DNA of 23,750 nucleotides from a virus (Duplodnaviria; Heunggongvirae; Uroviricota; Caudoviricetes), in IMG/VR virus record IMGVR_UViG_2778261673_000009; one strand, 5' to 3'. Each line of letters opens with the position of its first letter. The stretch's first letter is position 1. Below, one piece after another: positions 8,028 to 23,262 of the stretch. Made by a program: the position numbers and the translations under genes. The notes under the pieces are model-generated. The model was given only the letters and a program-made list of their open reading frames with translations. It was not told where the DNA came from and did no database searches.

Positions 8028-8046
8028 GGCGTGGCGGGGGGAGCAT
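8028..8046. other. cos-like cohesive-end site
   Basis: GGCGTGGCGGGGGGAGCAT matches the P2/P4 19-nt cohesive end (GGCGAGGCGGGGAAAGCAC, recalled from memory) at 15/19 positions. It lies about 165 bp past psu, as in P4, next to a GC-rich inverted repeat (CCGCCCCGC/GCGGGCGG). Confidence 0.55.
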
Positions 8047-8129
8047 TGCGCGCTAAGGCTGATATTATAATTTTCTTTAATTCTATTTGGTATTTTGGCT
8101 TTATTCGTCAGAAGGAACTTTTAGAAATA

Positions 8130-8157
8130 GACCACTACAATGGATTGTAGCGGTCTG
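8130..8157 (-). terminator. Inverted-repeat hairpin downstream of the cargo operon
   Basis: AGACCACTACAAT-GG-ATTGTAGCGGTCT (12/13-bp stem), 9 nt after the partner gene stop. The following minus-strand tract ATTTCTAAAAG is only weakly U-rich. Confidence 0.3.
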
Positions 8158-8165
8158 CATGATAT

Positions 8166-8906
8166 CTAGCGTTGCATTTCAGTTACTATGAAATTTTCTT
8201 CTGTAATAGAATTCATTATCTCAAAGTACAATTCTTCAGGTTGAATAAACGCCAACTCTTTGCAAAGGTTGACAATGGTATCACTATAAGTGATACCCAT
8301 CCGAGGATTGAAAAGCTCAAATCTCTTGATGTTTCTTTTGTTTTTTGAGTAAAAGTTTAAAGTGAAATATATTAGCACCTGTCTAAGATCGTAAACACTA
8401 AACTTCCTATCTCCTGATTTTATTTCCACAAGAACATTTGAATAATAAATATCGCCATATGAATTATTTATTACTCCGCATCCATCGAATTGTGGAGACA
8501 CTTCAATTTGGTTTTCCATTCCATATCGAGACAAAATGTTTCTTGCTATTTCCCTTATGGCATTGTACTCAACCATGCTTAAGGGTAGCTTGAAGTTAGA
8601 ACCGTAAGCGAACCGCTGTAGATATTCTTTTGTTTTTTCAAAAACAACCTGAAAATCAGCATTATGGAAGATATCATGTGCTGAAAGAATATTTCTGTCT
8701 AACGAATCATTCTGTATTGCCCTATATAAATTAAATGCGCACTCATTGACAAAGACGTTATTTGACCTATTAGCGCAGTCATCTAGAGGAGGATAAACGT
8801 CCTCGATGAGACTGCCGTTAATGATGCGTATGAAATTATTAGCATTTGGAAGCAATTGATTCCAAAATGAAGTGAATTTTCGAGAAAACGTTAATTCAGA
8901 TATCAT
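8166..8906 (-). CDS. Hypothetical 246-aa protein, partner of the reverse-transcriptase gene; possible PD-(D/E)xK-type nuclease
   Basis: AT-rich ORF whose ATG overlaps the RT stop (ATGA). It contains GDIYYSNVLVEIKSG, that is D-x9-E-x-K. The nuclease reading is motif-level inference only. Confidence 0.6.
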   Translation of the reverse strand: MISELTFSRKFTSFWNQLLPNANNFIRIINGSLIEDVYPPLDDCANRSNNVFVNECAFNLYRAIQNDSLDRNILSAHDIFHNADFQVVFEKTKEYLQRFAYGSNFKLPLSMVEYNAIREIARNILSRYGMENQIEVSPQFDGCGVINNSYGDIYYSNVLVEIKSGDRKFSVYDLRQVLIYFTLNFYSKNKRNIKRFELFNPRMGITYSDTIVNLCKELAFIQPEELYFEIMNSITEENFIVTEMQR

Positions 8907-10531: not shown

Positions 10532-11708
10532 TCACATTCTCCTTAATAAAAATATAATCTGAATACCACTGCATCATATCACGGCGTTTATCAATATATT
10601 GAGCATGATTATACGTACCTCTAATATTATTCTTATCTATATGAGCAAGCTGTATTTCTATCCAAGCCGAATCATATCCTTTTTCGTGGAGGATAGTAGA
10701 TAAGGAATGTCGAAATCCATGACCAGTAAGTTTTCCACCATAACCAATACGCTTGATAACTTGGTTAATACTCGCCTCACTCATAGGCTTGTTCGGATCG
10801 TTCCGCCCCGGAAAAACATAACTATACTTCCCTGTCATCATCTTGAGTTCATTTAGCAAATCTAACGCTTGAGTCGACAAAGGCACAAGGTGTGATCTGC
10901 GCATTTTCATCCTTTCAGCAGGAATTTCCCAAATAGCGTTATCTAAATCAAATTCTGACCATAATGCCGCACGTAATTCGATGGTTCTAACACCTGTAAT
11001 CATGAGCAATTTCGTGGCAATCAGGACAAGCCGACTTCCGGTATATCCGTTTAAGGCGCGAAGAAAATCAGGTATCTCATTAGCCTTTAAGAACGGGAAA
11101 TGATTTGATTGGTGTACATTGAGGGCGCTTGAAAGATCCGCAGCAGGGTTAAACTCAGCCCTTCCAGTAGCAATGGCATAGCGGAAAACTTCTGAGCATC
11201 GCTGCCGAACTTTGCGCATTTTTTCTAATGCACCGCGCTTTTCGATTTTACGCAGCACATTAAGCAGTTCTAGCGGTTTAATCTCTCCCACTGGCCTTGT
11301 TCCCACATAAGGAAAAATGTCGTTCTTAAACGCTTCCATGATGTCTGATGCATATCCCGCCGACCATTTGGTAGACTTCTGTTGATGCCACTCTCTGGCT
11401 ATCTTTTCGAAGGCGTTCTCTGACTCTGTTTGCAGAGCCAGCTTTTGCTCTTTTCGAACCTCACTAGGGTTCTTTCCTTCTGCCACAAGTTTTCGAGCTT
11501 CATCACGACGGGAACGAGCATCAGCAAGAGTGATCGTTGGGTAAACACCAAGCGAGATCATTTTGGGTTTACCGGCATAGCGATAACGAAATCGCCAGCT
11601 TTTACTTCCATTTGGCTCTACAAGTAAAGACAACCCTTGCCCATCCCCAAGTGTATAGGCTTTAGCTTCAGGTTTAGCACGGCGAATCTGCATATCATTT
11701 AGGGGCAT
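10524..11708 (-). CDS. int: P4-family tyrosine integrase
   Basis: 394 aa with a typical P4-type integrase N-terminus (AKPEAKAYTLGDGQGLSLLVEPNGSKSWRFRYRY) and a C-terminal catalytic region (HGFRHSLSTIL...). It is adjacent to the putative att core. The true start may be the second Met, 15 nt downstream. Confidence 0.9.
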   Translation of the reverse strand: MPLNDMQIRRAKPEAKAYTLGDGQGLSLLVEPNGSKSWRFRYRYAGKPKMISLGVYPTITLADARSRRDEARKLVAEGKNPSEVRKEQKLALQTESENAFEKIAREWHQQKSTKWSAGYASDIMEAFKNDIFPYVGTRPVGEIKPLELLNVLRKIEKRGALEKMRKVRQRCSEVFRYAIATGRAEFNPAADLSSALNVHQSNHFPFLKANEIPDFLRALNGYTGSRLVLIATKLLMITGVRTIELRAALWSEFDLDNAIWEIPAERMKMRRSHLVPLSTQALDLLNELKMMTGKYSYVFPGRNDPNKPMSEASINQVIKRIGYGGKLTGHGFRHSLSTILHEKGYDSAWIEIQLAHIDKNNIRGTYNHAQYIDKRRDMMQWYSDYIFIKENVNE

Positions 11709-11890: not shown

Positions 11891-12033
11891 TAAAACACTC
11901 GATTAATCTCGTGTTAATGCCATCACCTACGACTATTACTAATTGATTGAATCTTATAGAAAAATAATCATTTTCTATGCGTCACAATCAATTTTCACAT
12001 TACAAACGCTCCGACACTTTAGCCGGAGATTTT

Positions 12034-13311
12034 ATGAGATACAAGCCTAACCAATACTTAATCTGTGATTCTTACGGTAACTACTATTTAAGGATCACGC
12101 TGCCTGTGTATATGCAGCCCTTTTTTGAAGGAAAAAGGACGTTTGTCAGAAGTCTACACACAAGTAATCTTCGTGTTGCACGTAGAAAGCGTGATCAGAT
12201 TGCAGATGAATACCATTGCTTACGGGAGAGTGTTGCCCCTGTAAACAGCACAATAGAAAACACGCTGGAACTGTTACGCAGTAAGGCTAAATACGCCAAA
12301 ACAGCTACCAGAGTGCAAGATACAGCGTCTTCGTGTCCGTCATTGCTTAAAATTCTTGAAATCTACCTGACAATTAACAGCACGAAGAAGAAGCCAGCCA
12401 CTTTAGCTAAGGCAAGAAAAGCGGTAGAGATGTTTCTCTCCTACCGTAAAAAGCCTGATATTGCATTGCAAGATGTAAGCCGCACCACTGTTACAGGCTG
12501 GATTGAACACATGCAAAAAACTCTTTCACAACAATCAATTGCAAATTATATCAGCCCAATGGCCCAGCTATGGGAGTTAGCTTCATCACGTTACCACGAT
12601 GCGCCAGAAAGGGCGCTCTCCCCCTGGCGAGGGCATAGGCTTGATGTGGCACAAAGTAGAGAGAGCTACGAGGCATTTTCTAACAAAGAGCTATTGCAGG
12701 TGTTGCAAGTATTTTCCGGTAATTCAGCAGAAAACAAAGAAATGACGGCTTTGTGTCTTATCGGTTTATATACAGGTATGCGGATCAATGAGATAGCAAG
12801 TCTCACAATAGACGATGTGAAAGAGATCGAAGGTGTGCTGTGTTTTGAAATCACACAGGGAAAGACGAAAGCAGCGGCACGTGTTGTGCCTGTACATAGC
12901 CTTATCACTCCGTTGGTGTTGTCGCTGCGTGAAAAGCCTCACAATGGCTTTTTGTTCTATCACGCCAGCATTACAGAGCGTGCTGATGGTAAACGTTCCA
13001 CGTGGCATACGCAGAGATTTACAAGAGCTAAACGAAAGGCTTTAGGGGAAAAGGGAACAGAAAGGAAGGTGTTTCATTCTCTGAGACACGGAGTAGCACA
13101 GCTTCTTGATCGAAATCAAATTCCAGAAGACAGGATCGCCCTTCTCCTGGGCCATACACGCGGCAATACAGAAACATTCCGCACATATAGCAAAAATGCA
13201 GCTTCTCCAGTAGAGCTTAAAAAATATATTGAGCTTTTACGCTACCCTGAAATAGAGAAAGGCTTATCAATCAATAAAAAATCAAATTTAAGGCGTAAAA
13301 CAACGCCATAG
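12034..13311 (+). CDS. Tyrosine recombinase / phage-type integrase of a second element
   Basis: Catalytic motifs visible: TGMRINEI, HSLRHGVAQLL and LLGHTRGNTETFRTYS. The track's longest ORF begins at 11977, but the ATG at 12034 has a GGAG Shine-Dalgarno 6 nt upstream and is preferred. Confidence 0.8.
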   Translation: MRYKPNQYLICDSYGNYYLRITLPVYMQPFFEGKRTFVRSLHTSNLRVARRKRDQIADEYHCLRESVAPVNSTIENTLELLRSKAKYAKTATRVQDTASSCPSLLKILEIYLTINSTKKKPATLAKARKAVEMFLSYRKKPDIALQDVSRTTVTGWIEHMQKTLSQQSIANYISPMAQLWELASSRYHDAPERALSPWRGHRLDVAQSRESYEAFSNKELLQVLQVFSGNSAENKEMTALCLIGLYTGMRINEIASLTIDDVKEIEGVLCFEITQGKTKAAARVVPVHSLITPLVLSLREKPHNGFLFYHASITERADGKRSTWHTQRFTRAKRKALGEKGTERKVFHSLRHGVAQLLDRNQIPEDRIALLLGHTRGNTETFRTYSKNAASPVELKKYIELLRYPEIEKGLSINKKSNLRRKTTP

Positions 13312-13392
13312 ACGTAATAAGGAGGCTTCAACATAGATTGGTAGCCTCTTTTATAATTACATCGTTACAGAGCGTTTCATAGGCGTTTAAGG

Positions 13393-14070
13393 CTATTGTT
13401 TAAATACTGGTGTTACAACGTCTTGCCCTGGGCTTTTTTGATTTTTCTGTTCTGTTGTATTTACCTGCATTTTAACCTGTCCCCCTACAGATTTATTTGG
13501 TGCTGTTTTTACAGCAATAGCATTAGTGGTGGCCTTAGAGACAAGACGAATTTGCTCAAAATCAAGAGTAAACAATATGCTTTCGCTTGCTTCTTCTTCG
13601 TAAGACATGCCAACTAACACAACGTTGTCATAATTTTTTAACTCAGTGACAAGTAGGAAAGGTTGGCGACTGTCCATCAACTGATTTAGGTATTCAAGCA
13701 TAAGCATACGTCGATTGCCGTTAATTCCAGCATTCTTAATCATATCAGGATTGAGCTTCAATACGGTTTCAGAGATACGCCCTTGTAATGTGAACTTGTT
13801 ATTCCGTATTTGAACATGATCACTAACTTCTGATCCTGATTCGACAGCATAGCTTGTAACGTCTGCATTTCTGCTAACTCTCGTCGATTCCACGCTATCA
13901 AATGATAATGCCTGGTAGTCATTGTAAGCAGCATTTGCACCACTGCCGAGATTAGAGGTAATGATCGCAAAGCCGTTACCCCCTTTAGTTGTTCTACCGT
14001 TGCTATCGTTGCTTGTGCTGTTGATTTTCGCCTCAGTCGGGCGACCAATGGTTAACGGACCCATTGCCAT
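13393..14070 (-). CDS. Hypothetical 225-aa protein, last gene of the structural-type operon
   Basis: ORF with AAGGA about 9 nt upstream of the ATG, co-directional with the upstream genes. No recognisable motif. Confidence 0.55.
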   Translation of the reverse strand: MAMGPLTIGRPTEAKINSTSNDSNGRTTKGGNGFAIITSNLGSGANAAYNDYQALSFDSVESTRVSRNADVTSYAVESGSEVSDHVQIRNNKFTLQGRISETVLKLNPDMIKNAGINGNRRMLMLEYLNQLMDSRQPFLLVTELKNYDNVVLVGMSYEEEASESILFTLDFEQIRLVSKATTNAIAVKTAPNKSVGGQVKMQVNTTEQKNQKSPGQDVVTPVFKQ

Positions 14071-14117
14071 AATTTGTAATCCTTATTTAAGGGGGCTAAA
14101 CAGCCCCACAGTGATGA

Positions 14118-15959
14118 TTAATAGGTTGACCCGCCTGACATAACACCCAGCGTTAATAGCTTGCTAAACTCAGCGGAGGATGCCTTTGATTTGAAGTCGA
14201 TAAATTCGCTCAATCGTCCGGTGTCTGATTCGATAGTTAGCGGCACTTCTGCATTTACTTGTAATTCTGGATTGAAGTTAATAACAGGTGCAAAGGTGTA
14301 AGAAGGAGCCTTGAAAGCTTGTTGTGCTGCACTCTGTTTCAGATTTGCAATGTTTTGTCCTTCGAGACTGTATTGATTTACAGCCTGCGCCCCACCTACC
14401 GTTTCTTCTGGCATAAACCAGCTTTTAATAGTGTTAACCAGGGAATTGCTGTTATCTGGCTTAGTTGTTCCGGTGCCAGCGCCTTTATATTGATCAGGAG
14501 TGAGATTAGAAAGATTCTGCTTCATTCCTTCGTTAGATAGTGGCGGTGCATCACCTAAATTCTTCTGAATAGCTGCCGTCTTCTCGTCGTTTTTCATCAG
14601 CCAGTTGATTGTTTTCATTACGGCGTTAACCAATCCGCCGATAGCCTCGCCTAATTTGGTAAACATTGGCAGCATTGCAACCATGCTCTTTTTAAACTCT
14701 TCAATCACTTTCGGATCAAGAGATTTCATAAAGCCATCAACAAAGGCGATCCCTTGTGAGTCAGAAAGCCCACTAAGTGCATTATTCAGTTCACGGAATT
14801 TAATAACGCTTTCCTGTTGTGCCTGTGTTACCCAGCGCCCTGATTCTCGTTGTTCTCGTGCTGATTGTTCCACTTCTTTAGCGGAGCGTGTCCAGTATTT
14901 AGAGGTGAGCATCAAATCATCAGCCAGATCTTCCAGACGACTACCGATTTGTGCATCTGAATAGCCTTTAGCTACCATTCCCTGAACTGCTTTACTAACC
15001 AGACCAGCCGGATTATCAGCAAAGTCTTTTAGATCCTTTTTAGTTAGGAATCCTTCATTCATTAAAGTATTGATGCCGCTATCGCCGCCCTTCCATTCGC
15101 CTTTCCCTGTTTTCTTATCGACTACATATTCAGCCTCATCATAGCTTTTGGTTGCACGCTCACGCACATCTTTCATCTGATCGAGATACTTACGTTTACC
15201 TTGATCCCCCATCATTGAATCAACGCCGTTTTTATACGCCCATTGCTCAATATTGTTCATCTGGTTAACGTCTACACCGCCCAGCTTCGCACGGCTATAC
15301 AATTCTCCCAGCGTTTCAGCACTGGCAAAGCTGTTAGTAACAAATTCAGAGGCTTTGCTCATAGCCATATACGTAGCGCCAGCGCCTAAGCCACCCAGCA
15401 TAACAGCCGCAGCACCGCCGCCAATACTCCCGCTACCCTTAACAGGTGCATAGGCTTTAGCGTGAGCGTTACGATTGCCATTAATCTTACGTTGTTGCTG
15501 TTGTAGGCGTTTCATTTGGCTATTCATACGTGCCAGACTAATAGCGCCTCTTTCATATTGGAGGGCAATTTCTCTAGCCTGTGCAATAGCTTTATATTGT
15601 TCCGCTACAGAAAGACGGTGCATTGCACTAATGCTTGATCCAACGTCTAAAAGCTTTAAGTCTGCCTTCTCTTTGCGTGCTGCCAGGGCTTTTTGTTCTC
15701 TTGCAACTACACGTTGAGCGGCTAATTGTGCTTTAGCATTAGCTTTATCAGCCTGTGCTTGCTTTTTAGCAATATCGTCTACGTCTTTTTTTGCTTTAGC
15801 GGTTGATTGTTTATGTGTCTTAACACGCAATTCTATATCTTTCACAGCCGCCATTTGTTTACGAAGTTTTTCTACTTCTGCTTTTGCTTTCTCTAATGAT
15901 GGTCGATCAACCTGGAAGGTGACAACGTTTGATAAGCGGCTGACGGTAAGGTCTAACAT
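14118..15959 (-). CDS. 613-aa protein with N-terminal coiled-coil region and Gly-rich hydrophobic segment (tape-measure-, ejection- or scaffold-like)
   Basis: The N-terminal 150 aa are rich in K/A/E/Q heptad-like sequence, followed by GSGSIGGGAAAVMLGGLGAGATYMAM and then a long polar region. The functional class is inferred from composition only. Confidence 0.65.
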   Translation of the reverse strand: MLDLTVSRLSNVVTFQVDRPSLEKAKAEVEKLRKQMAAVKDIELRVKTHKQSTAKAKKDVDDIAKKQAQADKANAKAQLAAQRVVAREQKALAARKEKADLKLLDVGSSISAMHRLSVAEQYKAIAQAREIALQYERGAISLARMNSQMKRLQQQQRKINGNRNAHAKAYAPVKGSGSIGGGAAAVMLGGLGAGATYMAMSKASEFVTNSFASAETLGELYSRAKLGGVDVNQMNNIEQWAYKNGVDSMMGDQGKRKYLDQMKDVRERATKSYDEAEYVVDKKTGKGEWKGGDSGINTLMNEGFLTKKDLKDFADNPAGLVSKAVQGMVAKGYSDAQIGSRLEDLADDLMLTSKYWTRSAKEVEQSAREQRESGRWVTQAQQESVIKFRELNNALSGLSDSQGIAFVDGFMKSLDPKVIEEFKKSMVAMLPMFTKLGEAIGGLVNAVMKTINWLMKNDEKTAAIQKNLGDAPPLSNEGMKQNLSNLTPDQYKGAGTGTTKPDNSNSLVNTIKSWFMPEETVGGAQAVNQYSLEGQNIANLKQSAAQQAFKAPSYTFAPVINFNPELQVNAEVPLTIESDTGRLSEFIDFKSKASSAEFSKLLTLGVMSGGSTY

Positions 15960-15993
15960 ACTGATTGTTTCCCTGTATTATGATTGTTGTTTG

Positions 15994-16191
15994 TTATTGT
16001 TTTTTAGAACAATAATATTGGATTGCTTCGAAAGTGCTGCACCCGGTCTGAAACACACGCTGCCGCACATTATTTGCATCAATTGAAAGCATTCTGCATA
16101 AGGCACTGACATTGATTATTGAGTCATCGCTAATAGCTGCCAGTTCTTTTACAGATTTAAGAATTAATGCCTGTGAATTTTCTGTGTTCAT
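15994..16191 (-). CDS. Small hypothetical protein (65 aa)
   Basis: ORF with a weak ribosome-binding site between the capsid-like gene and the 613-aa gene. Confidence 0.3.
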   Translation of the reverse strand: MNTENSQALILKSVKELAAISDDSIINVSALCRMLSIDANNVRQRVFQTGCSTFEAIQYYCSKKQ

Positions 16192-16355
16192 TGGTTTTCT
16201 CTCACATATATATTTTTATTTGGATTTGTAGACAGTAGAAAAACAAAAAGGGCAAAGAGATTCGTTACTGTATTTGCGCCTACAGGTTAGTTAATCTCCT
16301 TACCCTTATTGCCCCCCGATTATTTCCAGACGTAGGGGAACGTCTTTAACACTTT

Positions 16356-17384
16356 TTACGCTACTGTGATCTGCACAGAGAAGCCAACACCGTGGTTAAC
16401 CACAAGCGAGCTATTCTCGGTCACTACGTGCACTGCGTCGCCGCGATTCGATTCGAAAGCATAGCTGTAATACTCTTTAGCGCCTTGAGACAGCAGATCG
16501 AAGGAACTGGAAGGCGCGCCATAGATAGCTTGGTAAACACCTCCACCCTTAGCGAATTTAGGCACGGCTACAGCGTCAGCGGTCATATGTGCCAGCAGCA
16601 GCGGATCAGTCACTTTGATCAGATCAATGTTAGTTCCTGGAATGGTGAAAGTAGTTACGCCAGGCAGCAGAGAACGCACATTAAACACCACGTTTGCATC
16701 GTCTACAGGGCTTGCATATTGGAACGCATTGACCATGCCAACGCTGTAACGAATAGCGTTGAATGCCGCAGGTTTACAGAACACAACAACACGCTCAATG
16801 GTTGCAGCCTGGCTTTGTGCCTTAGCAATCATATCCGTATGCATCTGATCAAATTGCTTGAATACGGTCATTGTGTTGGTGCTGGATGCGTCAACGGTTG
16901 CAGTCATTGGAGACACACCGAACAGAGTGCTGTAATCGATCAGAACATCGTCAGTTTTCGGCGTATGTGTCTTGCCAGAGAACAGAGAAGCCGCGAGGAT
17001 GCTTTCTTTAGTGCGCTGGAATGCAACATTGTGTTTAGCGATATATTCCGCATACAGATCCGGCAGTGTTTCTTCAATAGAGCTTCCGGCTTTGCGTTTG
17101 CCTTGCACGTCCTGCGGTTTGATCAGGTCTTCACGCAGGAAGTAAGGGATTTCAATCAGCCATTCTTCCCCGTTCTCACGCTTAGTAACGTTATGCTCAG
17201 AGCTAAAACGGCTTGTAGGATGGTTGAACAGAGATTCATTGCTCTCGATAAGCTGGGAAACAGCCACTTTGTGACTTTCTACAGGCACAGGATCAGTAAA
17301 ATCCAGAGTAGACAGTAGGTAATTGCGTGAGTCGTTTAATTCGAACAGTGGAGCAAGATCAACCACTTCATTTCCGATAATCAT
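16356..17384 (-). CDS. Putative major capsid protein, lambda gpE-like
   Basis: 342 aa, essentially the length of lambda E-family capsid proteins. C-terminus ...GFSVQITVA resembles the E-family C-terminal motif as recalled. Preceded by a 124-aa gene, like the lambda D-E pair. GAAGGA lies 10 nt upstream of the ATG. Confidence 0.5.
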   Translation of the reverse strand: MIIGNEVVDLAPLFELNDSRNYLLSTLDFTDPVPVESHKVAVSQLIESNESLFNHPTSRFSSEHNVTKRENGEEWLIEIPYFLREDLIKPQDVQGKRKAGSSIEETLPDLYAEYIAKHNVAFQRTKESILAASLFSGKTHTPKTDDVLIDYSTLFGVSPMTATVDASSTNTMTVFKQFDQMHTDMIAKAQSQAATIERVVVFCKPAAFNAIRYSVGMVNAFQYASPVDDANVVFNVRSLLPGVTTFTIPGTNIDLIKVTDPLLLAHMTADAVAVPKFAKGGGVYQAIYGAPSSSFDLLSQGAKEYYSYAFESNRGDAVHVVTENSSLVVNHGVGFSVQITVA

Positions 17385-17400
17385 TATTATTTATTCCTTC

Positions 17401-17775
17401 TTAAGATGTGAAAACAGAGTGGAAGCCTTCAAGCTGGAAGCCTTTAGCAGCGAGAGCTGCAATAGCAGCTTCTTTTACAGCGCCTTCGGCATTCAGGGCA
17501 TCAGCTTTGATGCAAACGAGTCCGGCATTAGCACGAAGCACGTTAACTGTTTTATTTGAATCAGCAGTTACGAAGTCAGACACAACGACAAGAACATCAG
17601 CGCCGCTAACATATTTAGCGCCGGATGAATCAATGAGGTCGCCGCACGTTACATCTTGTGCAAGTGCTGCAAATTTTTTGCTTTCTACAGCCGCGTAAGG
17701 GTCGGTTGCATAGCTCACTACGTCAGTGATGCTTTTACGATGTGGGAAAACATCGCTTAATTTTAAAATAGCCAT
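17401..17775 (-). CDS. Putative head-decoration-like protein (124 aa)
   Basis: Small Ala/Val/Gly-rich protein immediately upstream of the capsid-like gene. Strong AAGGA ribosome-binding site. Start overlaps the stop of the upstream gene (TAATG). Function assigned by position and size only. Confidence 0.4.
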   Translation of the reverse strand: MAILKLSDVFPHRKSITDVVSYATDPYAAVESKKFAALAQDVTCGDLIDSSGAKYVSGADVLVVVSDFVTADSNKTVNVLRANAGLVCIKADALNAEGAVKEAAIAALAAKGFQLEGFHSVFTS

Positions 17776-17984
17776 TATTTTTCCTTAGATTGTTTGATTT
17801 GTTGAGCTTTAGCATTAATCAAATCTTGGTGAGATGGTTTATTGCTGTCAGCCTTATAAAGACGTTCACACTGTTTCTTTAATTCTGTAGGAGTGATGCC
17901 AAGCGCGTAGGCTGTAGCATTCAACACATCCTCAGTTAGTGTTAACTTTTCATTGCCATATTTCAGGATAATTTCTTGTTTCAT
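17775..17984 (-). CDS. Small hypothetical protein (69 aa), first gene of the structural-type operon
   Basis: ORF translationally coupled (TAATG) to the 124-aa gene. Weak ribosome-binding site. Confidence 0.45.
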   Translation of the reverse strand: MKQEIILKYGNEKLTLTEDVLNATAYALGITPTELKKQCERLYKADSNKPSHQDLINAKAQQIKQSKEK

Positions 17985-18013
17985 AAAATAACGATTCCGT
18001 TATGTTCCGAGTA

Positions 18014-18062
18014 ATAAAAAGCCCCAGGCTATAAGAGGTTCAATCAACAATAGCAAGGGGCT
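18014..18062 (-). terminator. Terminator-like hairpin preceding the structural-type operon
   Basis: GCCCC(AG)GCTAT...ATAGC(AA)GGGGC stem-loop followed on the minus strand by a T run (plus-strand AAAAA at 18016-18020). It sits between the early-type genes and the capsid-like genes. Confidence 0.3.
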
Positions 18063-18990
18063 TATTTATTTTGTATCGGGCAAAATACATATTGTGATAA
18101 GTCAACTTTGAGGAGGTTTAACGTTATCTCTAAGAATACTTTTATAAATACGCTTAGAGATATGTTAAGGGTGAATAACAGGACCGCAGGAGAAATTGGC
18201 TCTTAGGAGGGGCCAACCCTTTGGAATCTACGATCCTGCTATTCGATGCGGGGGCTAAACCGCTGCCTGTTTTTGCTGTGGATGCAACAAAGTAAGGCTT
18301 TAAGGAATCACTATTCCAATTCTAATCTACTCACAGATCAAATTTTAATAGGATTAACTACACCAACAGTAATCTACCGTTTCAGAAAATCGTTTTTACA
18401 ACCAAAGCTTATAGATCCGCATTCTATAAAACCCGTTTTGCTATCAATATTTCCAAAGTTTATTGCACCATTCTTAGCTAAACTCTCTCTACTTGCGGCT
18501 AACGCTATGCAGATGATAGTTTTTTGACAACAACTTAATAGATTATTCTGTTACTAACTTCCGTCATTAAATAAGAGTTTAATGATGTTAGTAAATAGTT
18601 ATAAAATATAACTATCAGTGTAAGGCTCTTTAATGTTTTCGGACAAAATAAGGAGCTTTAGGATAAGCATAGATGAAAAATAAGAGCGGGAAGGGCAAGG
18701 AGATAACACCTACCCGCTTTTATCAAAATTAAGCACAATGCCTAACAACATTCATCAACACAACGTAGAAACAATCAACAATCAAAGAGGGAGTTATGAT
18801 TATTCTAAAACTTCTTGAGAGATGGAAGGTAATATTTGTTAGAGGTTAATGCCACTCAACCTTTGAGGCTATCACCTTCCATATGCAGGGATTTATGACA
18901 ATAGAAGGATTAACGCCAACTAAAATCTTTTTATCTACCCCTAAAATTATTATATAACAAAATCATTATAAATGCAAATGATTTTCATTA

Positions 18991-19299
18991 TCATTTAGAG
19001 AAAATAGCACTTTTTGCTAAATCATCTACTAATTGCTGAATCTCTTCACTTGCAACCTTTAACGTGGTGGCGATGTCTGTGATGATTTGATTACACTGTT
19101 TTGCATCGTGCTCAGATAGCTTTAAATAGCTCACCAGAGAGATAAAATCGTCAAGGCTTACATTCACCTTCATTAAGCTAATAACGCATTGAGAGAGCGT
19201 GTAATCGCATAAATCTGAATAGGCTTGATTTATTCTTGTTTGTAGTGAGATAGTCAGATCTAAAAGTTGTTCCATTGCATTGCTAATATCTTCTTCCAT
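18991..19299 (-). CDS. Small hypothetical protein (102 aa)
   Basis: ORF whose ATG overlaps the stop of the upstream 67-aa gene (TAATG). Confidence 0.5.
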   Translation of the reverse strand: MEEDISNAMEQLLDLTISLQTRINQAYSDLCDYTLSQCVISLMKVNVSLDDFISLVSYLKLSEHDAKQCNQIITDIATTLKVASEEIQQLVDDLAKSAIFSK

Positions 19300-19502
19300 T
19301 ATGCGTATTCTCCTTGTAATGCATCATTAATCATATTCAATACGATGTTAAAAGGTGTCTTGAGCGTCAGCACTTCATCACGGTAACGATCTAATGCTTC
19401 GTAGTCTTCTGTTTCTTTTGCCAGCCGGATTAACTCAGCATAGTTTTTTGCATCAGACAGGATCATCTGAAATAATTGTGTTTCTTGAATATAGCCAATC
19501 AT
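19299..19502 (-). CDS. Small hypothetical protein (67 aa)
   Basis: ORF with AAGGA 8 nt upstream of the ATG. Confidence 0.45.
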   Translation of the reverse strand: MIGYIQETQLFQMILSDAKNYAELIRLAKETEDYEALDRYRDEVLTLKTPFNIVLNMINDALQGEYA

Positions 19503-19560
19503 TATTTTTCCTTTTTTTGAATATTTTCATTGGGCGCTTATACATACGCCCATCATTTTA

Positions 19561-19944
19561 TTAGTTAGAACGTTTGTTAGAAGCTAATGTATCTTCTAAA
19601 TGAGCCATCAGATCGACTTCCGATGCACCACCTACACAATTATTGAAAGCGTTAAATCCCAAAAAATGATGATAGGAGCTAAACCCTAAAAGCTGCCAAC
19701 GTTTCAGAGTGCCATCAGAAATGATAGTTTGTTTTCTTGTTCTTGGGCGAAAGTAAACGCCTGGCATTGACTGGATTATTTCTAATTCTTCATCACTTAA
19801 TTCAGGGGATTCTGTTTCAAGAATAAAGATTATCTCTTCCCCTGGAATTTCGTTATTGGTATGTGTCGGTGGACGTTGTCTTGTTGAATTGAAATTACTG
19901 TTTTTTTCAATACGTTTTAAGTTGTTCTTCTTCTTTCTTCCCAT
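19561..19944 (-). CDS. Hypothetical protein (127 aa)
   Basis: ORF with GAGGG 5 nt upstream of the ATG. Basic N-terminus (MGRKKKNNLKR). Confidence 0.5.
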   Translation of the reverse strand: MGRKKKNNLKRIEKNSNFNSTRQRPPTHTNNEIPGEEIIFILETESPELSDEELEIIQSMPGVYFRPRTRKQTIISDGTLKRWQLLGFSSYHHFLGFNAFNNCVGGASEVDLMAHLEDTLASNKRSN

Positions 19945-20040
19945 TTTCCCTCTTTTTATGTGGATTATAAAAACTGAATGCCATAGTTACGATGAATATC
20001 GCCATAAATGCATTTGCCATATGTATTGCCCGATCTGTTG

Positions 20041-20310
20041 TTATTGATTGTTTGTGATAAACAATTCAAAATCTTTGTTTAATTTCAAAAGACGAAATGT
20101 AGTGCTGTTAATCCCTTCATAATCCAGCACACCGAACGATGTAAAATGATTTAACCAATGATTTACGTGTTGTGCGCTGTAGCCGCCTAAACTACAAAAG
20201 CTAACCACTGTCGGCGGTGAGAACTCTATTTCCAAAATAGCTTTTAAAATGTTGTATCCGCTTTCAGTTATTTCAATAGTTTTGTTTCCTGTAGTGATGT
20301 TATAAGTCAT
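20041..20310 (-). CDS. Hypothetical protein (89 aa)
   Basis: ORF with AAGGAG 6 nt upstream of the ATG. Confidence 0.5.
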   Translation of the reverse strand: MTYNITTGNKTIEITESGYNILKAILEIEFSPPTVVSFCSLGGYSAQHVNHWLNHFTSFGVLDYEGINSTTFRLLKLNKDFELFITNNQ

Positions 20311-20319
20311 TTATTCTCC

Positions 20320-20889
20320 TTAGAATGGTATTGAATCGTATATTTCACTTTTTTCTCTTAGAGATATTATCAGATCGTGAAAAGCCTGTTTCTCAAGATA
20401 GATATTCTTTGAATCTAATGCACGTTTTACAAAATCTTCTGTTTCTTCGTGCGGTGGTTTCTTCTTATCAAGGGAAAGAAGCCAAGTAAAAATTTCGGGC
20501 CGCTCAGGGAACTCTGATTCCTGTGTTTCTTCTTCAACGATGATTTCGGAAACATTCAATATTTCATTAGATTCGTCTTCTTTCTCAGAAGGATCAGGTA
20601 GTGATGATTCTCCTTTTGGAATATCAAGCACTCGATAAAGGTTAGAGCTTCCTGGTCGTGCATCTTTTATAATTAATCCCATTTCGAGCAATTTCTTAAC
20701 CCTTTCTTCTGCTGCTCTTGGTGTTATGCCAAAAACATCGCCTATCTTAGCGTAAGAGGGAAATGCACGATCAAACCCTCTCAAATAGCAGTAAAGGTTT
20801 TTAGCACTATCTGTAAATTTATGCCCGTTTACTTGGCTTATTTTTAGAATCCACATAGGAACTTTTACAAATTGTTCTTCATTAATCAT
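20320..20889 (-). CDS. Putative replication initiator / replisome-organiser with N-terminal winged-helix domain
   Basis: Likely start is the ATG at 20889 (AAGGAG 7 nt upstream; the track ORF begins at a GTG at 20913). N-terminal pattern FVKVPMWILK...SAKNLYCYLRGF...FPSYAKIGDVFGITPRAAEERVKKLLEMGLI is typical of phage and island replication-initiator DNA-binding domains. Acidic C-terminal half. Confidence 0.55.
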   Translation of the reverse strand: MINEEQFVKVPMWILKISQVNGHKFTDSAKNLYCYLRGFDRAFPSYAKIGDVFGITPRAAEERVKKLLEMGLIIKDARPGSSNLYRVLDIPKGESSLPDPSEKEDESNEILNVSEIIVEEETQESEFPERPEIFTWLLSLDKKKPPHEETEDFVKRALDSKNIYLEKQAFHDLIISLREKSEIYDSIPF

Positions 20890-20942
20890 TAAAAATCTCC
20901 TTGATGTAATCACGCTCTACGGCGCTACTATGGTGATAAAAA

Positions 20943-21113
20943 TCACTTGCTTTTGTTTGAGAGTGTTTCAGCCTCTCTTTTCAACATATCAAGAATGTAA
21001 TCTGTAACAGTGATACGTTTACTTCTGGCTTCTTTAAACAACACCTGAAATACTTCATCAGGAATATGAAAGCAAGTGCGTGGTTGTCTTTTCTTTTCTG
21101 TAGTTTCGCTCAT
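20943..21113 (-). CDS. Small 56-aa protein, possible ribbon-helix-helix regulator
   Basis: Not in the ORF track (under 60 aa). ATG at 21113 with GGAG 6-7 nt upstream. Translation MSETTEKKRQPRTCFHIPDEVFQVLFKEARSKRITVTDYILDMLKRE has a strand-helix-helix look. Confidence 0.4.
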   Translation of the reverse strand: MSETTEKKRQPRTCFHIPDEVFQVLFKEARSKRITVTDYILDMLKREAETLSNKSK

Positions 21114-21134
21114 AGTTTTCTCCTTCTCCTGTTA

Positions 21135-21317
21135 TTATTCTTTCTCTGCTTCTGCCTTACGCAGTTCATCAATAATTTTTAGTGCATCGTCAAAACATTT
21201 TTCACGCTCTGGATAACCACAGCGTCGCGCTGTGTTCCTGTTCATCCTTACTTTAAAACGATTAATCTCACCACGTTTCCAGGCTTCAACTACATCTTGA
21301 GAAGTGAAATACTTCAC
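21135..21317 (-). CDS. Small 60-aa protein, first gene of the leftward early-type operon (GTG start)
   Basis: Start codon is GTG at 21317, with AGGAGG 7 nt upstream. Basic small protein. Confidence 0.5.
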   Translation of the reverse strand: MKYFTSQDVVEAWKRGEINRFKVRMNRNTARRCGYPEREKCFDDALKIIDELRKAEAEKE

Positions 21318-21486
21318 TAATTAACCTCCTATTCTATTTGGTTAAAAGAAAAAACACCTTGCAAGCCTTGTTGGGCTTCAAAGTGCGGTGCATTGGTTTA
21401 ATTACTTAGAGGATAAGAATGTTTTCTGTCCCTAATATTACTTTACCACGACTAAAAGCTTTTGTCAACCCCTGGCCATAAAAATA

Positions 21487-21511
21487 TTGATCATTTTCAG
21501 TGTGTTATAAT
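21487..21511 (+). promoter_or_regulatory. Candidate extended -10 promoter (TGTTATAAT) reading rightward into the ORF-poor region
   Basis: TGT-TATAAT at 21503-21511 with TTGATC 13 nt upstream. The upstream hexamer is too close for a standard -35, so the call rests on the extended -10 alone. Confidence 0.3.
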
Positions 21512-21618
21512 TTTTCTTAGCAATTCGTGCTCTTACGAGTGTTCCTATTCTTCCTTATTCTCTAAAACGCTCTAAAACGCGTTCTAACGAGGTATTTGAT
21601 AAAAACAATACATTCCCT

Positions 21619-21656
21619 TATGTAGAGGTTGTTTAGCTCGCCAGAGGCTTATTTAA
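21619..21656. repeat. Repeated element, copy 1 (GTTTAGCTCGCC-N3-GGCTT-ATTTAAG-GGG)
   Basis: GTTTAGCTCGCCAGAGGCTTATTTAAGGGG recurs at 21797-21832. The tail AAGGGGCTTATTT..TTGTAT also recurs at 18052-18076. Confidence 0.5.
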
Positions 21657-21796
21657 GGGGCTTATTTTGTATTTGTTAGGTATATGAAAAGGAGATGATA
21701 GATAAAATCTAATTTCAGACATCTTATAAAATACCTGTAAAGCTCTCAGAAGCTCTGTAACGAGCTAATCTATTACCGCTAAGTGTTTCCCTGCCT

Positions 21797-21832
21797 TATA
21801 TACGTTTAGCTCGCCTACGGCTTGATTTAAGC
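21797..21832. repeat. Repeated element, copy 2
   Basis: GTTTAGCTCGCCTACGGCTTGATTTAAGCGG, a direct repeat of 21619-21656 with few mismatches. Confidence 0.5.
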
Positions 21833-22301
21833 GGTAGAATCTTATTTAACCTTCAACTACTAAAACCATTCTTTCTTTTTTGTTTGTTGTTGGTTGTTGT
21901 CTGTGTCTATGTGCTAACATCGCTAACGCGTAGCACACAAGGTTATTGCACAAGTAAATTTCAATCGTTAGATGGTAGTTAGTTAATTATCGTTCTGCGC
22001 ACAGCGCAAGACTATTTAGCCTTACGCAAGCCGTAGGCTATTTGCACATAGTAGATTACATATTCGTTGTGAGCGGCATTAGCGAACATAGATCTACTAA
22101 CTAACATCAACAAACAAAAACTATGTGTTATGACAAGCAGTCTAACGACTAACACTCTAACTTGTGCAAGGTTCTGGCGAATGCCAATAGATTAAGGGAT
22201 AGTCAAGGACTCCCCTAACGGGTACCCCTATAATTATTCTTTAAAGATAAAAGAATTTATAAAAGATAATTTAATTGTAGTTTGATAGTTGATCTAATAG
22301 G

Positions 22302-22435
22302 TAACAAAATTCTGTAGGGGTGGCTAACAGTTTTCTGTGGGGGTGTATAACATAATTCTGTTAGGGTTGGGGTAACAGTTTTCTGTTAGGGTGCATATTT
22401 CTTTAAAAGTTAAGGATAACAGAATTCTGTGGGGG
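22302..22435. repeat. Iteron array: five 19-bp direct repeats TAACA-N3-TTCTGT-N-GGG(G), each with an internal ACAG-N4-CTGT dyad
   Basis: Units start at 22302, 22325, 22348, 22373 and 22417, giving spacings of 23, 23, 25 and 44 bp. The unit at 22417 contains the perfect palindrome ACAGAATTCTGT. Putative origin of the second element. Confidence 0.6.
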
Positions 22436-23262
22436 TAGTTCACAGTGACCTACCGTTACATCCATTTATCACATAACATCTGTGCAATGATCTTCTAAAA
22501 GTGTTTCTTGCTACCAAAATTAAACATCTAAAACAGGCTTAAATTCAAGATTAATTGATGATTAATCCTTATGTAATTCCATACTAAAAATTCAATGAAA
22601 AGTAGCTTAAAAGTGCAATTCTTACTTTCTTCACTTTTACATCACTTTCGCAAAGCCTTGTGTAATGCGGCTTACAGAGCACTATCAGAAATTGTTGATT
22701 AAAAATCAATCTATTATTTGTCGAACAAGTTTCTTTCACGTGTTGAAAATTTATGTTTAAATTTGCTTTCAATCTTTAATGTGCAATCACTATCAACATA
22801 AAAATAAAAACCTTCTATTATATTTCATAGCATACAAAAGTCAATAGAAGCCCTCTCGTGCTCCTACGTAAAAAATCCACCACTTTTCCCCTGATACATC
22901 AACTCAAGGCGTTCTATGTGTTCCTTAGTGCATATTACGATTATTATGTTAAATGGATTTTGGCCTATATTTTGACCTGCACCCGCATAAACACTGGTTT
23001 CATCGCTTACAGCCCTTGTGAGACGTGGTGCTGTTTCTAGCATCTGATCCGACATAAAACCGATCATTCTCGTGTTTAGTGAAAGTTTAGTGAGAGACAT
23101 TACAGAAAGGCTTTCTGTGTAATGATTTAATAGGTAAAAACGATGTTGATTACGCAAGAAAATTCCTTGCTGATATTTGGGGATTCTGGATTTTCCAGAT
23201 CGGGGGGCGCTAAAAATCGCGTTAAGCACCTCTCGCAATCTAGCCATAAGGGAAGGGATATA

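What the first reader, a model, noticed from the sequence alone, without database searches (positions are those of the whole stretch)
18014..18990. 1-kb non-coding gap with a terminator-like hairpin immediately upstream of the capsid-type operon
No credible protein gene lies between the last early-type gene (ends 18991) and the first structural-type gene (starts 17984). A stem-loop followed by a T run (18014-18062, minus strand) sits just before the structural genes. This suggests that their expression needs read-through or antitermination, perhaps triggered by a helper. The tail of the repeated element noted at 21619 recurs here (18052-18076).
Basis: partly seen in the sequence, partly recalled or inferred. 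Interest (0 to 1): 0.4.

Follow-up and report, generated by a model that had tools for sequence, protein, structure and literature searches.

The report
Structured RNA leader gating satellite capsid genes
The 1-kb "empty" stretch is a conserved, highly folded non-coding RNA leader, with its own strong promoter and two terminator hairpins, placed in front of the capsid and tail genes of a phage-satellite-like island in E. coli, so those genes can probably be made only when transcription is let through.

Summary
Window 17985-18990 has no conserved ORF and is never annotated in hundreds of E. coli genomes. The hairpin plus U-run at 18063-18010 (minus strand) is a good intrinsic terminator 26 nt before the first capsid-module gene. 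The claimed recurrence of a repeat is only a 13-nt match, no better than chance.

The gap is a transcription unit on the minus strand. It has a near-consensus sigma-70 promoter (18977-18949) directly after the last early gene and a roughly 270-nt structured leader ending in terminator T1 (18724-18676). A long-range helix spans T1. A 133-nt three-helix RNA lies at 18301-18169; 22 of its 40 pairs show compensatory changes, it has 53 G-U against 1 A-C, and it has no Rfam match. A long hairpin and then terminator T3 follow.

The layout of promoter, structured leader and terminator just before the capsid genes recurs in 26 distinct relatives, from E. coli, four other named genera and unassigned viral contigs. 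There is no room for a sigma-70 promoter after T3.

Best reading: a cis-acting leader that gates the structural operon by termination and read-through. A helper trigger is plausible, because the structural proteins resemble rV5-like phapecoctaviruses, but it is untested and no antiterminator was identified.

The parts
18949..18977 (-). Leader (late) promoter: -35 TTGCAT (18977-18972), 17-nt spacer, -10 TATAAT (18954-18949). The likely start is about 18943, within TTAGGGGTAGA (18944-18934).
   Evidence: The promoter scan gives 10 of 12 matches. A promoter with 9-11 of 12 matches lies in the first 45 nt of the gap in 25 of 26 distinct relatives in the scan. In the remaining one (EC38 class) TTGACT-17-TATAAT was read from the alignment.
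18822..18943 (-). Leader 5' domain. SL1 (about 18943-18886) is closed by GGGG/CCCU and contains the CU-rich GUUAAUCCUUCU. SL2 is the long hairpin GGAAGGU...ACCUUCC (about 18882-18822).
   Evidence: Both are in the MFE of the whole leader. SL1 closing pairs change to GGGGC/GCCCC in H22 and UAGG/CCUA in EC38. In EC38 the SL2 arms are replaced by a different, still complementary pair (GAAAGCG/CGCUUUC), 7 pairs changed on both sides.
18794..18817 (-). 5' arm of the long-range helix LR (CAAGAAGUUUUAGAAUAAUCAUAA).
   Evidence: It pairs with 18672-18649. The same long-range helix appears in the MFE of three divergent classes with different sequences. The homologous helix in other genera has 6 of 11 pairs compensatory (helix 3).
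18735..18785 (-). U/G-rich tract with UUGAUUG heptad repeats (2-3 copies), enclosed by LR.
   Evidence: Sequence read. Copy number varies (FORC_069 has 3). A UG-rich tract sits at the same place in other genera.
18676..18724 (-). Terminator T1: stem AGCGGG/CCCGCU (18718-18685) followed by CUCUUAUUUUU.
   Evidence: dG -17.5, z -4.5, 0 of 200 shuffles fold as well. The stem is replaced by GGCAACAA/UUGUUGCC in H22 and GGGGC../..GCCCC in EC38, each followed by a U-run.
18649..18672 (-). 3' arm of the long-range helix LR (CUAUGCUUAUCCUAAAGCUCCUUA), downstream of T1.
   Evidence: It can form only in transcripts that pass T1.
18321..18648 (-). Middle segment of the leader, function unassigned. It contains UCUAUUAAG (18542-18534) and CCUAUUAAA (18352-18344).
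   Evidence: 96% mean pairwise identity among 22 variants. UCUAUUAA is also kept in other genera. There is no conserved ORF. H22 and EC38 carry large deletions or replacements here.
18169..18301 (-). Core structured RNA with three helices. P1 is GCCU..AGGC enclosing a hairpin with loop CAUCCA. P2 is GCGG..CCGC with loop UUAGCC. P3 is a 17-bp stem GAAUAG..UAUUC enclosing GAUUCC and a hairpin with loop (C)CUCCUAAGAG.
   Evidence: Covariance model R1 scores 59-153 bits in 30 loci. 96.1% of cells are paired, 22 of 40 pairs are compensatory, and slid controls give 34-48%. There are 53 G-U against 1 A-C pairs. The reverse strand scores only 12-14 bits. No Rfam match.
18120..18165 (-). Long AU-rich hairpin P4 (AUCUCUAAG...CUUAGAGAU), followed by the anti-Shine-Dalgarno-like CCUCCUC (18116-18110).
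   Evidence: dG -15.3, z -5.8. The arms are replaced compensatorily in the ZJ3920 class (AUAUCAUCA/UGCUGAUAU) and in EC38 (UAUAUAACAAUAAG/CUUAUUCUUAUAUG).
18010..18070 (-). Terminator T3, the hairpin of the finding: stem 18063-18019, U-run 18018-18010. It looks bidirectional.
   Evidence: dG -20.1, z -4.8. It is positionally conserved in all 26 distinct relatives, with canonical UUCG-loop terminators in other genera (helix 9).
17988..18003 (-). Short hairpin or palindrome AUAACGGAAUCGUUAU in the 5'UTR, 3 nt before the start codon.
   Evidence: weak on its own, z -1.35. The homologous hairpins between T3 and the ATG in other genera have compensatory changes in 4 of 12 pairs (helices 10-11).
17775..17984 (-). 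First gene of the structural operon (69 aa). It is followed by the 124-aa gene, the major capsid protein, the 65-aa gene, the tape-measure-like gene and the Dit-like gene (down to 13393).
   Evidence: ORFs. Phage_cap_E, tape-measure and Dit-like hits. Gene order is collinear with phAPEC8.

Best explanation
The gap is the long (about 930 nt), highly structured, untranslated leader of the island's capsid/tail operon.

Shown:
- A near-consensus sigma-70 promoter sits directly after the last early gene, pointing into the gap.
- There are two good intrinsic terminators: T1 about 265 nt downstream of the promoter, and T3 26 nt before the first structural gene.
- Several RNA helices on the transcribed (minus) strand are kept by compensatory changes, including helices that can form only after T1 or T3 has been passed.
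- The layout of promoter, structured leader and terminator just before the capsid genes is kept in every relative examined.

Inferred:
- In the resting lysogen-like state, RNA polymerase starting at this promoter mostly stops at T1 (and any escapers at T3). This produces a roughly 265-nt leader RNA and keeps the capsid, tape-measure and Dit-like genes silent.
- On induction, presumably infection by an rV5-like (phapecoctavirus) helper, polymerase is made terminator-resistant or the leader refolds. The full leader is then made, folds (LR helix, core RNA, P4), and the structural operon is expressed.
- The long perfect stems (P3 with 17 bp, P4, LR) may also serve as RNase III processing or stabilising sites and shield the untranslated leader from Rho.
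- The acting factor is unknown.
For: - Promoter.
- Terminators: (z -4.5 and -4.8). They keep their position while their sequence turns over across E. coli classes and other genera.
- No conserved ORF and no annotation in the gap.
- No sigma-70-like promoter between T3 and the ATG, a space of only 26 nt.
- Core RNA covariation: 96% of cells paired, 22 of 40 pairs compensatory, slid controls 34-48%.
- Strand: 53 G-U against 1 A-C; reverse-strand model scores of 12-14 bits against 59-153.
- The LR helix across T1 appears in three divergent classes and in other genera, where 6 of 11 pairs are compensatory.
- Helices between T3 and the ATG covary (helices 10-11).
- The leader of the non-E. coli islands as a whole: 92.9% paired, 30 of 77 pairs compensatory, 0 of 500 shuffles reach the observed values.
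- Whole window leader: MFE z = -6.6 on the minus strand against -4.7 on the plus strand.
- RNA1 and the middle segment are 96-98% identical among 22 variants.
- The early operon of the same island also starts with a promoter, a leader and a terminator, conserved in Citrobacter.
- Link to a helper: the Dit-like protein is 53% identical and the capsid protein 25% identical over its full length to phapecoctavirus proteins, the gene order is the same, and a 355-bp stretch is 99% identical to phage Mt1B1_P17.
Against: - There are no transcript data, so termination efficiency and the start site are predictions.
- No antiterminator was found. The 102-, 67- and 127-aa proteins upstream have no Pfam, PHROG or PADLOC match. 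The 102-aa protein is acidic, which is unlike a nucleic-acid binder. The AlphaFold model of the conserved, basic-N-terminal 127-aa protein is poor (pLDDT 56).
- In other genera the U-rich run after the T1-like hairpin is itself the 3' arm of the LR helix. T1 may therefore be a structural hairpin there rather than a terminator.
- The core RNA is absent from the short-gap subfamily and from other genera, so it is not essential to the shared design.
- Constitutive partial read-through would explain the same anatomy.
Confidence: 0.55

Rival explanations
1. The gap holds one or two independent non-coding RNA genes: the roughly 265-nt RNA ending at T1, and a second RNA containing the core and ending at T3. 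They would act in trans, for example as an immunity RNA like P4 CI, as an anti-helper RNA, or as a sponge for a purine-rich RNA or protein. T1 and T3 would simply be their own terminators. Capsid genes would be driven by leak or by an unrecognised helper-dependent promoter.
For: - Both units end in canonical terminators.
- The loops are invariant (CAUCCA, UUAGCC, CUCCUAAGAG) while the stems covary, as in trans-acting RNAs.
- There are many anti-Shine-Dalgarno-like CUCCU motifs.
- RNA1 is more conserved (98%) than the neighbouring coding DNA (95%).
- RNA-based immunity is established in the satellite P4; this rests on my own knowledge.
Against: - No conserved promoter lies in front of the core. 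The TTAAAA-18-TAGAAT match is lost in the EC571, H22 and EC38 classes.
- The LR helix needs transcripts that cross T1.
- No convincing target was found. Duplex z-scores are mostly between -1 and +1, and the best one (the 56-aa ribosome-binding site, z -2.7) uses a variable stem arm. There is no extended complement to the loops in the island.
- No match in helper phage pieces.
Confidence: 0.22
2. Passive insulation and dosage setting. The terminators and the folded spacer only insulate the early and late modules and attenuate a constitutive promoter to a fixed low level. Expression would rise simply through island replication (gene dosage) after induction, with no antitermination step.
For: - T3 and T1 look bidirectional, with A-tracts upstream and U-tracts downstream on both strands.
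- No antiterminator was identified.
- The iteron origin at 22299-22441 suggests copy-number amplification.
Against: - The conserved, covarying multi-helix architecture across genera is far more elaborate than an insulator needs.
- There are two terminators in series, and the same promoter-leader-terminator design sits on the early operon.
Confidence: 0.15
3. A DNA-level element such as a replication origin, a packaging site, a recombination site or an operator cluster. The inverted repeats would be protein-binding palindromes, not RNA stems.
For: - The region is AT-rich (31-41% GC) with many inverted repeats.
- The +1 region of the promoter (TTTTAGGGGTAG) resembles the iteron half CTGTAGGGGTGG. 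One operator may therefore lie here.
Against: - Paired positions hold 53 G-U but only 1 A-C, which is expected for RNA on one strand and not for DNA palindromes.
- The iterons lie elsewhere (22299-22441).
- The gap has no similarity to helper phage DNA that could serve as a packaging-site mimic.
Confidence: 0.05
4. Hidden small protein genes or a type I toxin-antitoxin pair. Candidates are the 17-aa MIILKLLERWKVIFVRG on the plus strand at 18797 and the 23-aa MLILKLLIL... on the minus strand after T1.
For: - Shine-Dalgarno-like AGGGAG lies 2 nt before the plus-strand ATG.
- The peptides have hydrophobic N-termini.
- The opposite strand is transcribed (direct reading).
Against: - The two 'ORFs' are the two arms of the LR helix, which explains their similarity.
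- The plus-strand ORF loses its ATG in EC38 and changes its C-terminus in H22.
- No ORF of at least 30 aa is conserved.
- The Shine-Dalgarno spacing is too short.
Confidence: 0.03

Closest known systems
Lambda late-gene control: PR' promoter, 6S leader RNA, tR' terminator, Q antiterminator
   Same: - A strong constitutive-type sigma-70 promoter lies directly after the last regulatory or early gene.
- A leader of about 200-270 nt ends in an intrinsic terminator.
- Head and tail genes lie immediately downstream and need read-through.
   Different: - No Q-family protein was detected upstream.
- There are two terminators in series.
- The leader is 650-950 nt and elaborately folded, with covarying helices and a 133-nt core RNA.
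- A Q-binding or pause element could not be established.
Satellite P4 immunity: PLE leader, CI RNA (Rfam C4 family), premature termination
   Same: - A phage satellite in which a constitutive promoter is followed by a leader where transcription stops.
- RNA structure in the leader is the regulator.
- The same design appears on the early operon of this island.
   Different: - No C4/CI family match in the gap. The C4 hit at 4813-4900 belongs to the neighbouring P4-like element.
- No seqA/seqC-like complementary repeats were found.
- This leader controls the structural genes, which P4 lacks.
Cis-acting processive antitermination RNAs (HK022 put, Bacillus EAR)
   Same: Structured RNA lies between a promoter and downstream terminators, at the head of a long operon. 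The core RNA sits about 100 nt before T3.
   Different: - No sequence or structure match to any Rfam family.
- The fold differs: three helices, including a 17-bp stem.
- No evidence of RNA polymerase binding.
- The core is missing from related islands that keep T3.
RNase III-processed leaders and retroregulation sites (lambda N leader, sib; T7 early mRNA)
   Same: Long near-perfect double-stranded RNA stems (P3 with 17 bp, P4 with about 15 bp, LR with about 20 bp) in an untranslated region next to phage-type genes.
   Different: Cleavage is not demonstrated. The stems here are embedded in a larger conserved fold with invariant loops.

Membership tests
Intrinsic (Rho-independent) terminator | G+C-rich stem-loop that is more stable than chance | tested here: met
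   T3 has dG -20.1 and z -4.8. T1 has dG -17.5 and z -4.5. For both, 0 of 200 shuffles fold as well.
Intrinsic (Rho-independent) terminator | U-tract directly 3' of the stem | tested here: met
   T3 is followed by UUUUUAUUA (18018-18010). T1 is followed by CUCUUAUUUUU. A hairpin plus U-run precedes the first capsid-module ATG in all 26 relatives.
Intrinsic (Rho-independent) terminator | Actual release of RNA polymerase | not testable with these tools
   This needs in vitro transcription or Term-seq.
Lambda-type Q antitermination module | Strong promoter with a terminator about 200 nt downstream, upstream of the late structural genes | tested here: met
Lambda-type Q antitermination module | Q-family antiterminator gene next to the promoter | tested here: not met
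   The 102-, 67-, 127- and 89-aa proteins have no credible Pfam or PHROG hit (only a sub-threshold BCCIP match for the 102-aa protein). The 102-, 67- and 127-aa proteins also have no PADLOC hit. The 102-aa protein is acidic.
Lambda-type Q antitermination module | Sigma-dependent promoter-proximal pause element (a -10-like sequence in the initial transcribed region) and a Q-binding element | tested here: inconclusive
   The conserved +1 region is TTAGGGGTAGAU in E. coli and UAUAGGGUAAGUAUUCG in other genera. It contains weak -10-like hexamers. The start site is unknown.
C4 / P4 CI antisense RNA family (Rfam RF01695, clan CL00128) | Match to the covariance model | tested here: not met
   No hit in the gap even at E <= 10. 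The window's only C4 hit is at 4813-4900.
C4 / P4 CI antisense RNA family (Rfam RF01695, clan CL00128) | Complementary target boxes in the same leader | tested here: inconclusive
   The duplex and motif searches gave no significant conserved pairing.
Any described RNA family (Rfam 15, 4227 models, including riboswitches, ribozymes and EAR) | Covariance-model match at or near the gathering score | tested here: not met
   The best hits in 17900-19100 score 15-21 bits against gathering scores of 36-81, with E of 2.6-9.6.
RfaH/ops (JUMPstart) leader | ops element GGCGGTAGnnTG in the leader | tested here: not met
   The closest strings are AGGGGTAGATAA (18942-) and AACGGTAGATTA. Both lack the defining bases and are not kept in H22, EC38 or other genera. 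The consensus comes from my own knowledge.
Type I toxin-antitoxin | Conserved small hydrophobic ORF overlapped by an antisense RNA | tested here: not met
   The small ORFs are not conserved and coincide with the arms of the LR helix.
Known satellite families (P4-like, PICI, cf-PICI, PLE), for the surrounding island | Hallmark genes: psu/delta/sid/alpha for P4; alpA plus pri-rep for PICI; portal, protease and small terminase for cf-PICI | tested here: not met
   The island has an integrase, an HTH protein plus iterons, a capsid protein, a decoration-sized ORF, a tape-measure-like protein and a Dit-like protein only. The hallmark lists come from my own knowledge.

The most novel reading that the evidence does not exclude
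The gap encodes a new class of large (0.65-0.95 kb), multi-domain riboregulator specific to a so far undescribed family of satellites of virulent rV5-like phages. On this reading the leader RNA, including the Rfam-absent 133-nt core with invariant CAUCCA, UUAGCC and CUCCUAAGAG loops, directly senses a helper-encoded protein or RNA and switches transcription through T1 and T3. It would thereby time production of the satellite's own capsid and tail proteins. It might also act in trans on the helper.
Probability: 0.25. Interest if true: 0.8.

Novelty: new variant of a known kind. Interest (0 to 1): 0.58.

Why it matters
Terminator-gated late operons are classic phage logic, as in lambda Q and P4 CI. 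Here the gate is a long, covarying structured RNA with no described relative, and it has no recognisable protein antiterminator.

It sits in an island that carries its own capsid, tape-measure and Dit-like genes. These most resemble virulent rV5-like phages, which are used in E. coli phage therapy work. Parts of the island match DNA in 763 of 5426 complete E. coli genomes, including outbreak strain O104:H4.

If the leader is the switch that detects the helper, it offers three things:
- a compact, testable model of how a satellite times structural-gene expression against a lytic phage;
- a new RNA family for structural and mechanistic study;
- a marker for finding such islands.

Tried and rejected
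- **Rfam.** The gathering-threshold search of the whole window and the E <= 10 search of the gap found nothing in the gap.
- **tRNA and tmRNA.** None found.
- **Protein coding.** ORF conservation was checked on both strands in 9 variants; nothing is conserved.
- **Type I toxin-antitoxin.** Rejected, because the two small ORFs are the arms of the LR helix.
- **Similarity of the gap to phages or plasmids.** None beyond E. coli islands.
- **Helper-specific late promoter.** phAPEC8 structural genes use ordinary sigma-70-like promoters. The only TATAAATA in the gap is on the wrong strand and is not conserved.
- **Internal promoter for the core RNA.** TTAAAA-18-TAGAAT scores 9 of 12 in the window but is not kept in the EC571, H22 or EC38 classes.
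- **Trans or cis pairing of the core or RNA1.** I tested the early leader, the ribosome-binding sites of 13 island genes and the 5'UTR. Nothing was significant or covarying. The GAUUCC/GGAAUC match to the 5'UTR hairpin does not covary.
- **ops/RfaH.** Not present.
- **Shared motif after both promoters.** TTAGGGRYAGA follows both island promoters in the window, but it is not shared between the early and late leaders in Citrobacter.
- **Antiterminator candidates.** The 102-aa protein is acidic, found only in E. coli hits and very variable. The 127-aa protein is conserved in all subfamilies and has a basic N-terminus, but its AlphaFold model is too poor for a fold search.
- **Pattern scans of viral contigs.** The 17-base core pattern gave mostly chance hits, as expected from the size of the collection. 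They were sorted afterwards with BLAST and the covariance model. A second pattern was badly designed and gave one hit.
- **Literature.** Five searches found no paper on this island or this leader.
Full report
**Setting.** The window is a mosaic.
- Bases 1-11708 are a P4-like satellite. It has an alpha primase, a C4/CI RNA and a DRT8 cargo.
- From 11977 to about 23000 lies a second island. It starts with a tyrosine integrase on the plus strand. All other genes run on the minus strand.
- The early genes are 21317-18991: proteins of 60, 56, 197 (HTH), 89, 127, 67 and 102 aa.
- The gap follows, and then the structural genes at 17984-13393. These encode a 69-aa protein, a 124-aa protein, a Phage_cap_E major capsid protein, a 65-aa protein, a tape-measure-like protein and a Dit-like protein.
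- Parts of this island match DNA in 763 of 5426 complete E. coli genomes.
- Its structural proteins are most similar to those of phapecoctaviruses, which are rV5-like virulent myoviruses. The Dit-like protein is 53% identical and the capsid protein 25% identical over its full length.
- The gene order matches phAPEC8: decoration, capsid, then tape measure and gp103.
- 355 bp of the HTH gene are 99.2% identical to phage Mt1B1_P17.
- The island lacks portal, protease and terminase genes, so it looks like a satellite of such phages. I found no paper describing it.

**The observation.** The gap at 17985-18990 is real.
- Its only ORF of at least 60 aa (18246-18527, plus strand) is disrupted in relatives, and no ORF of at least 30 aa is conserved.
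- RefSeq annotates nothing there in 40 sampled genomes.
- The whole kilobase is nevertheless kept at 85-90% identity in 271 genomes. A divergent version (EC38 class) is present at 80% coverage or more in 60 further genomes.
- The hairpin of the finding folds as predicted. The stem is 18063-18019, dG is -20.1 kcal/mol, z is -4.8, and the tail is UUUUUAUUA.
- The claimed recurrence of a repeat from 21619 is a single 13-nt exact run. Its partner does not fold. I regard it as chance.

**Anatomy, minus strand.**
1. Promoter: TTGCAT, 17 nt, TATAAT at 18977-18949, starting 13 nt after the stop codon of the 102-aa gene.
2. Leader RNA, probably starting in TTAGGGGUAGA. It has a 5' stem-loop domain with a CU-rich GUUAAUCCUUCU, a long hairpin SL2, a U/G-rich tract with UUGAUUG repeats, and terminator T1 at 18724-18676 (dG -17.5, z -4.5).
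3. Long-range helix LR, pairing 18817-18794 with 18672-18649, that is, across T1. It appears in the minimum-energy folds of three divergent classes with different arm sequences.
4. A 330-nt middle segment with no assigned function.
5. A 133-nt core RNA at 18301-18169.
6. A long hairpin P4 (z -5.8) followed by CCUCCUC.
7. Terminator T3.
8. A small hairpin 3 nt before the ATG at 17984.

The whole leader folds far better than shuffles on the minus strand (z -6.6) and less so on the plus strand (z -4.7).

**The core RNA.** In the alignment of variants I saw stems with compensatory changes. Single-sequence folds of six variants gave the same three-helix structure.
- A covariance model built from three divergent sequences found one full-length hit in each of 30 loci, at 59-153 bits.
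- On the resulting alignment 96.1% of cells pair and 22 of 40 pairs show changes on both sides. Sliding the partner by 1-3 columns drops pairing to 34-48%.
- Paired cells include 53 G-U and 1 A-C. Reverse-strand scores are 12-14 bits. The RNA is therefore read from the minus strand, the strand of the flanking genes.
- The invariant single-stranded parts are UGCAUCCACA, UUAGCC, two GAUUCC motifs, (C)CUCCUAAGAGC and the 3' UAUUCACCC.
- Nothing in Rfam 15 resembles it.
- One caveat applies: the alignment was fitted to the model, which favours the structure. However, the stems were first seen in an ordinary MAFFT alignment.

**Comparison with relatives.** Capsid-protein homologues retrieved islands from Buttiauxella, Kluyvera, Scandinavium, Citrobacter and Enterobacter genomes and from viral contigs. 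The gap comes in three forms:
- about 0.9-1 kb, with the core RNA (window type, H22 and EC38; E. coli only);
- about 340 nt (a second Escherichia subfamily with different early genes);
- about 610-750 nt (other genera).

In all 26 distinct gaps a hairpin plus U-run lies 12-80 nt before the first capsid-module ATG. A promoter with 9-11 of 12 matches lies within the first 45 nt in 25 of them. In the EC38 class I read TTGACT-17-TATAAT from the alignment.

The leaders of the other genera align with each other. They carry their own covarying structure: 92.9% of cells paired, 30 of 77 pairs compensatory, slid controls 39-47%, and 0 of 500 shuffles reaching the observed values. That structure includes:
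- a long-range helix around a UG-rich tract and a hairpin, the counterpart of LR plus T1 (helices 3 and 5);
- the terminator before the capsid genes (helix 9);
- two helices between that terminator and the start codon (helices 10-11).

Short motifs are shared between the E. coli leaders and those of other genera: the UAGGG start region, CU-rich tracts, UCUAUUAA and CCUCCU. The core RNA itself is not found outside the long E. coli form.

Among 22 window-type variants, the stretch from the transcription start to the middle segment is 96-98% identical. Everything from the core to the capsid genes is 77-84% identical. A mosaic breakpoint therefore lies near 18300.

**Mechanism.**
- Shown: the promoter; the two terminator-type hairpins; the absence of coding capacity; strand-specific RNA structure under selection, including structure that requires passage of T1 and of T3; the universality of the layout.
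- Inferred: polymerase from the leader promoter mostly terminates at T1 or T3, and the structural operon is expressed only on read-through.
- Only 26 nt lie between the T3 U-run and the ATG, and no sigma-70-type promoter is detectable there. The operon's transcripts must therefore start upstream of T3.
- The early operon of the same island has the same design. It has TTGACA-17-TAAAGT, a leader, and a hairpin plus U7 about 30 nt before the first gene, and this is conserved in Citrobacter. This suggests a common termination-based control.
- Regulated antitermination by a helper is plausible given the phapecoctavirus affinities, but nothing I ran tests it.
- The proteins encoded just upstream give no help. 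The 102-aa protein is acidic and very variable. The 127-aa protein is conserved in all subfamilies and has a lysine- and arginine-rich N-terminus, which makes it the best candidate for an RNA-binding factor. It has no family match, and its predicted structure is unreliable.

**Rivals.**
- Independent trans-acting RNAs. The invariant loops and the CUCCU motifs speak for this. The missing promoter, the missing targets and the LR helix speak against it.
- A passive attenuator or insulator.
- A DNA-level element. The G-U asymmetry argues against this.
- Hidden small ORFs. Rejected.

**Verdict.** The gap is a promoter-driven, terminator-punctuated, conserved structured leader RNA with a previously undescribed 133-nt core. 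It works like the lambda PR'-tR' or P4 leader systems, but it fails the membership tests for both.

Noticed in passing
window 1-11708: A P4-like satellite lies in tandem with the island studied. It has:
- an alpha primase-helicase (1029-3362, 777 aa);
- a C4/CI antisense RNA (4813-4900) with isrK and c4-a1b1 matches (5008-5098);
- ORFs of the sizes of sid, delta and psu (5920-7863);
- a P4-type integrase (10524-11708).

Its low-GC hotspot carries a DRT type 8 defence pair: the Drt8 reverse transcriptase (8903-10531) and a PD-(D/E)XK protein (8166-8906).
   Followed up: partly
window 11977-23000: The island around the gap looks like a satellite family with no description that I could find.
- It has an integrase, an HTH protein plus iterons, and its own decoration-sized protein, major capsid protein, tape-measure-like protein and Dit-like protein.
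- These are collinear with, and most similar to, virulent rV5-like phapecoctaviruses.
- It has no portal, protease or terminase.
- Parts of it match DNA in 763 of 5426 complete E. coli genomes.
- Capsid homologues occur in Citrobacter, Kluyvera, Buttiauxella, Scandinavium, Enterobacter, Klebsiella, Cronobacter and Serratia.
   Followed up: partly
window 20576-20930 (N-terminal part of the 197-aa HTH gene): This stretch is 99.2% identical over 355 bp to phage Mt1B1_P17 (MT496970.1 20681-21035). There it forms the N-terminus of a 329-aa protein. This points to recent DNA exchange between the island and a phapecoctavirus.
   Followed up: partly
window 21468-21318, minus strand: The leader of the early operon has the same build as the gap. 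It has TTGACA-17-TAAAGT, then TTAGGGACAGA at the start region, a CU-rich tract, and a hairpin (21386-21354) plus U7 about 30 nt before the first early gene. The promoter and the terminator are conserved in a Citrobacter island (L130 2406-2520).
   Followed up: partly
window 22299-22441 and 18934-18944: Five iterons (TAACAGwwTTCTGTkrGGGT) mark a likely replication origin. Their 3' half (CTGTAGGGGTGG) resembles the +1 region of the gap promoter (TTTTAGGGGTAG). In a Citrobacter island the iteron reads TGATAGGGGT and the +1 region reads CTATAGGGAC. This may be an operator for the iteron-binding protein, but the evidence is weak.
   Followed up: partly
window 21600-22260, minus strand: A further non-coding stretch of about 650 nt lies between the iterons and the early promoter. 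It starts with a promoter-like AGAATAAT followed by TATAGGGGTACC, and it has no ORF of 60 aa or more. It could be another leader or non-coding RNA.
   Followed up: no
window 18991-19299 (102-aa protein) and 19561-19944 (127-aa protein): The acidic 102-aa protein was found only in E. coli hits. It exists in well over 100 sequence variants of 72-100% identity, which looks like rapid diversification. The 127-aa protein is conserved across all subfamilies and genera. It has a lysine- and arginine-rich N-terminus predicted to be disordered, and a second basic motif YKPRRRKEY.
   Followed up: partly
L216, L217 and hit H56 (E. coli strains 20.1, JSMCR1 and O157:H7 EC10): IS600 and IS1 elements have inserted into the gap in several genomes. 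These are natural knock-outs of the leader that could be used to test its function.
   Followed up: no
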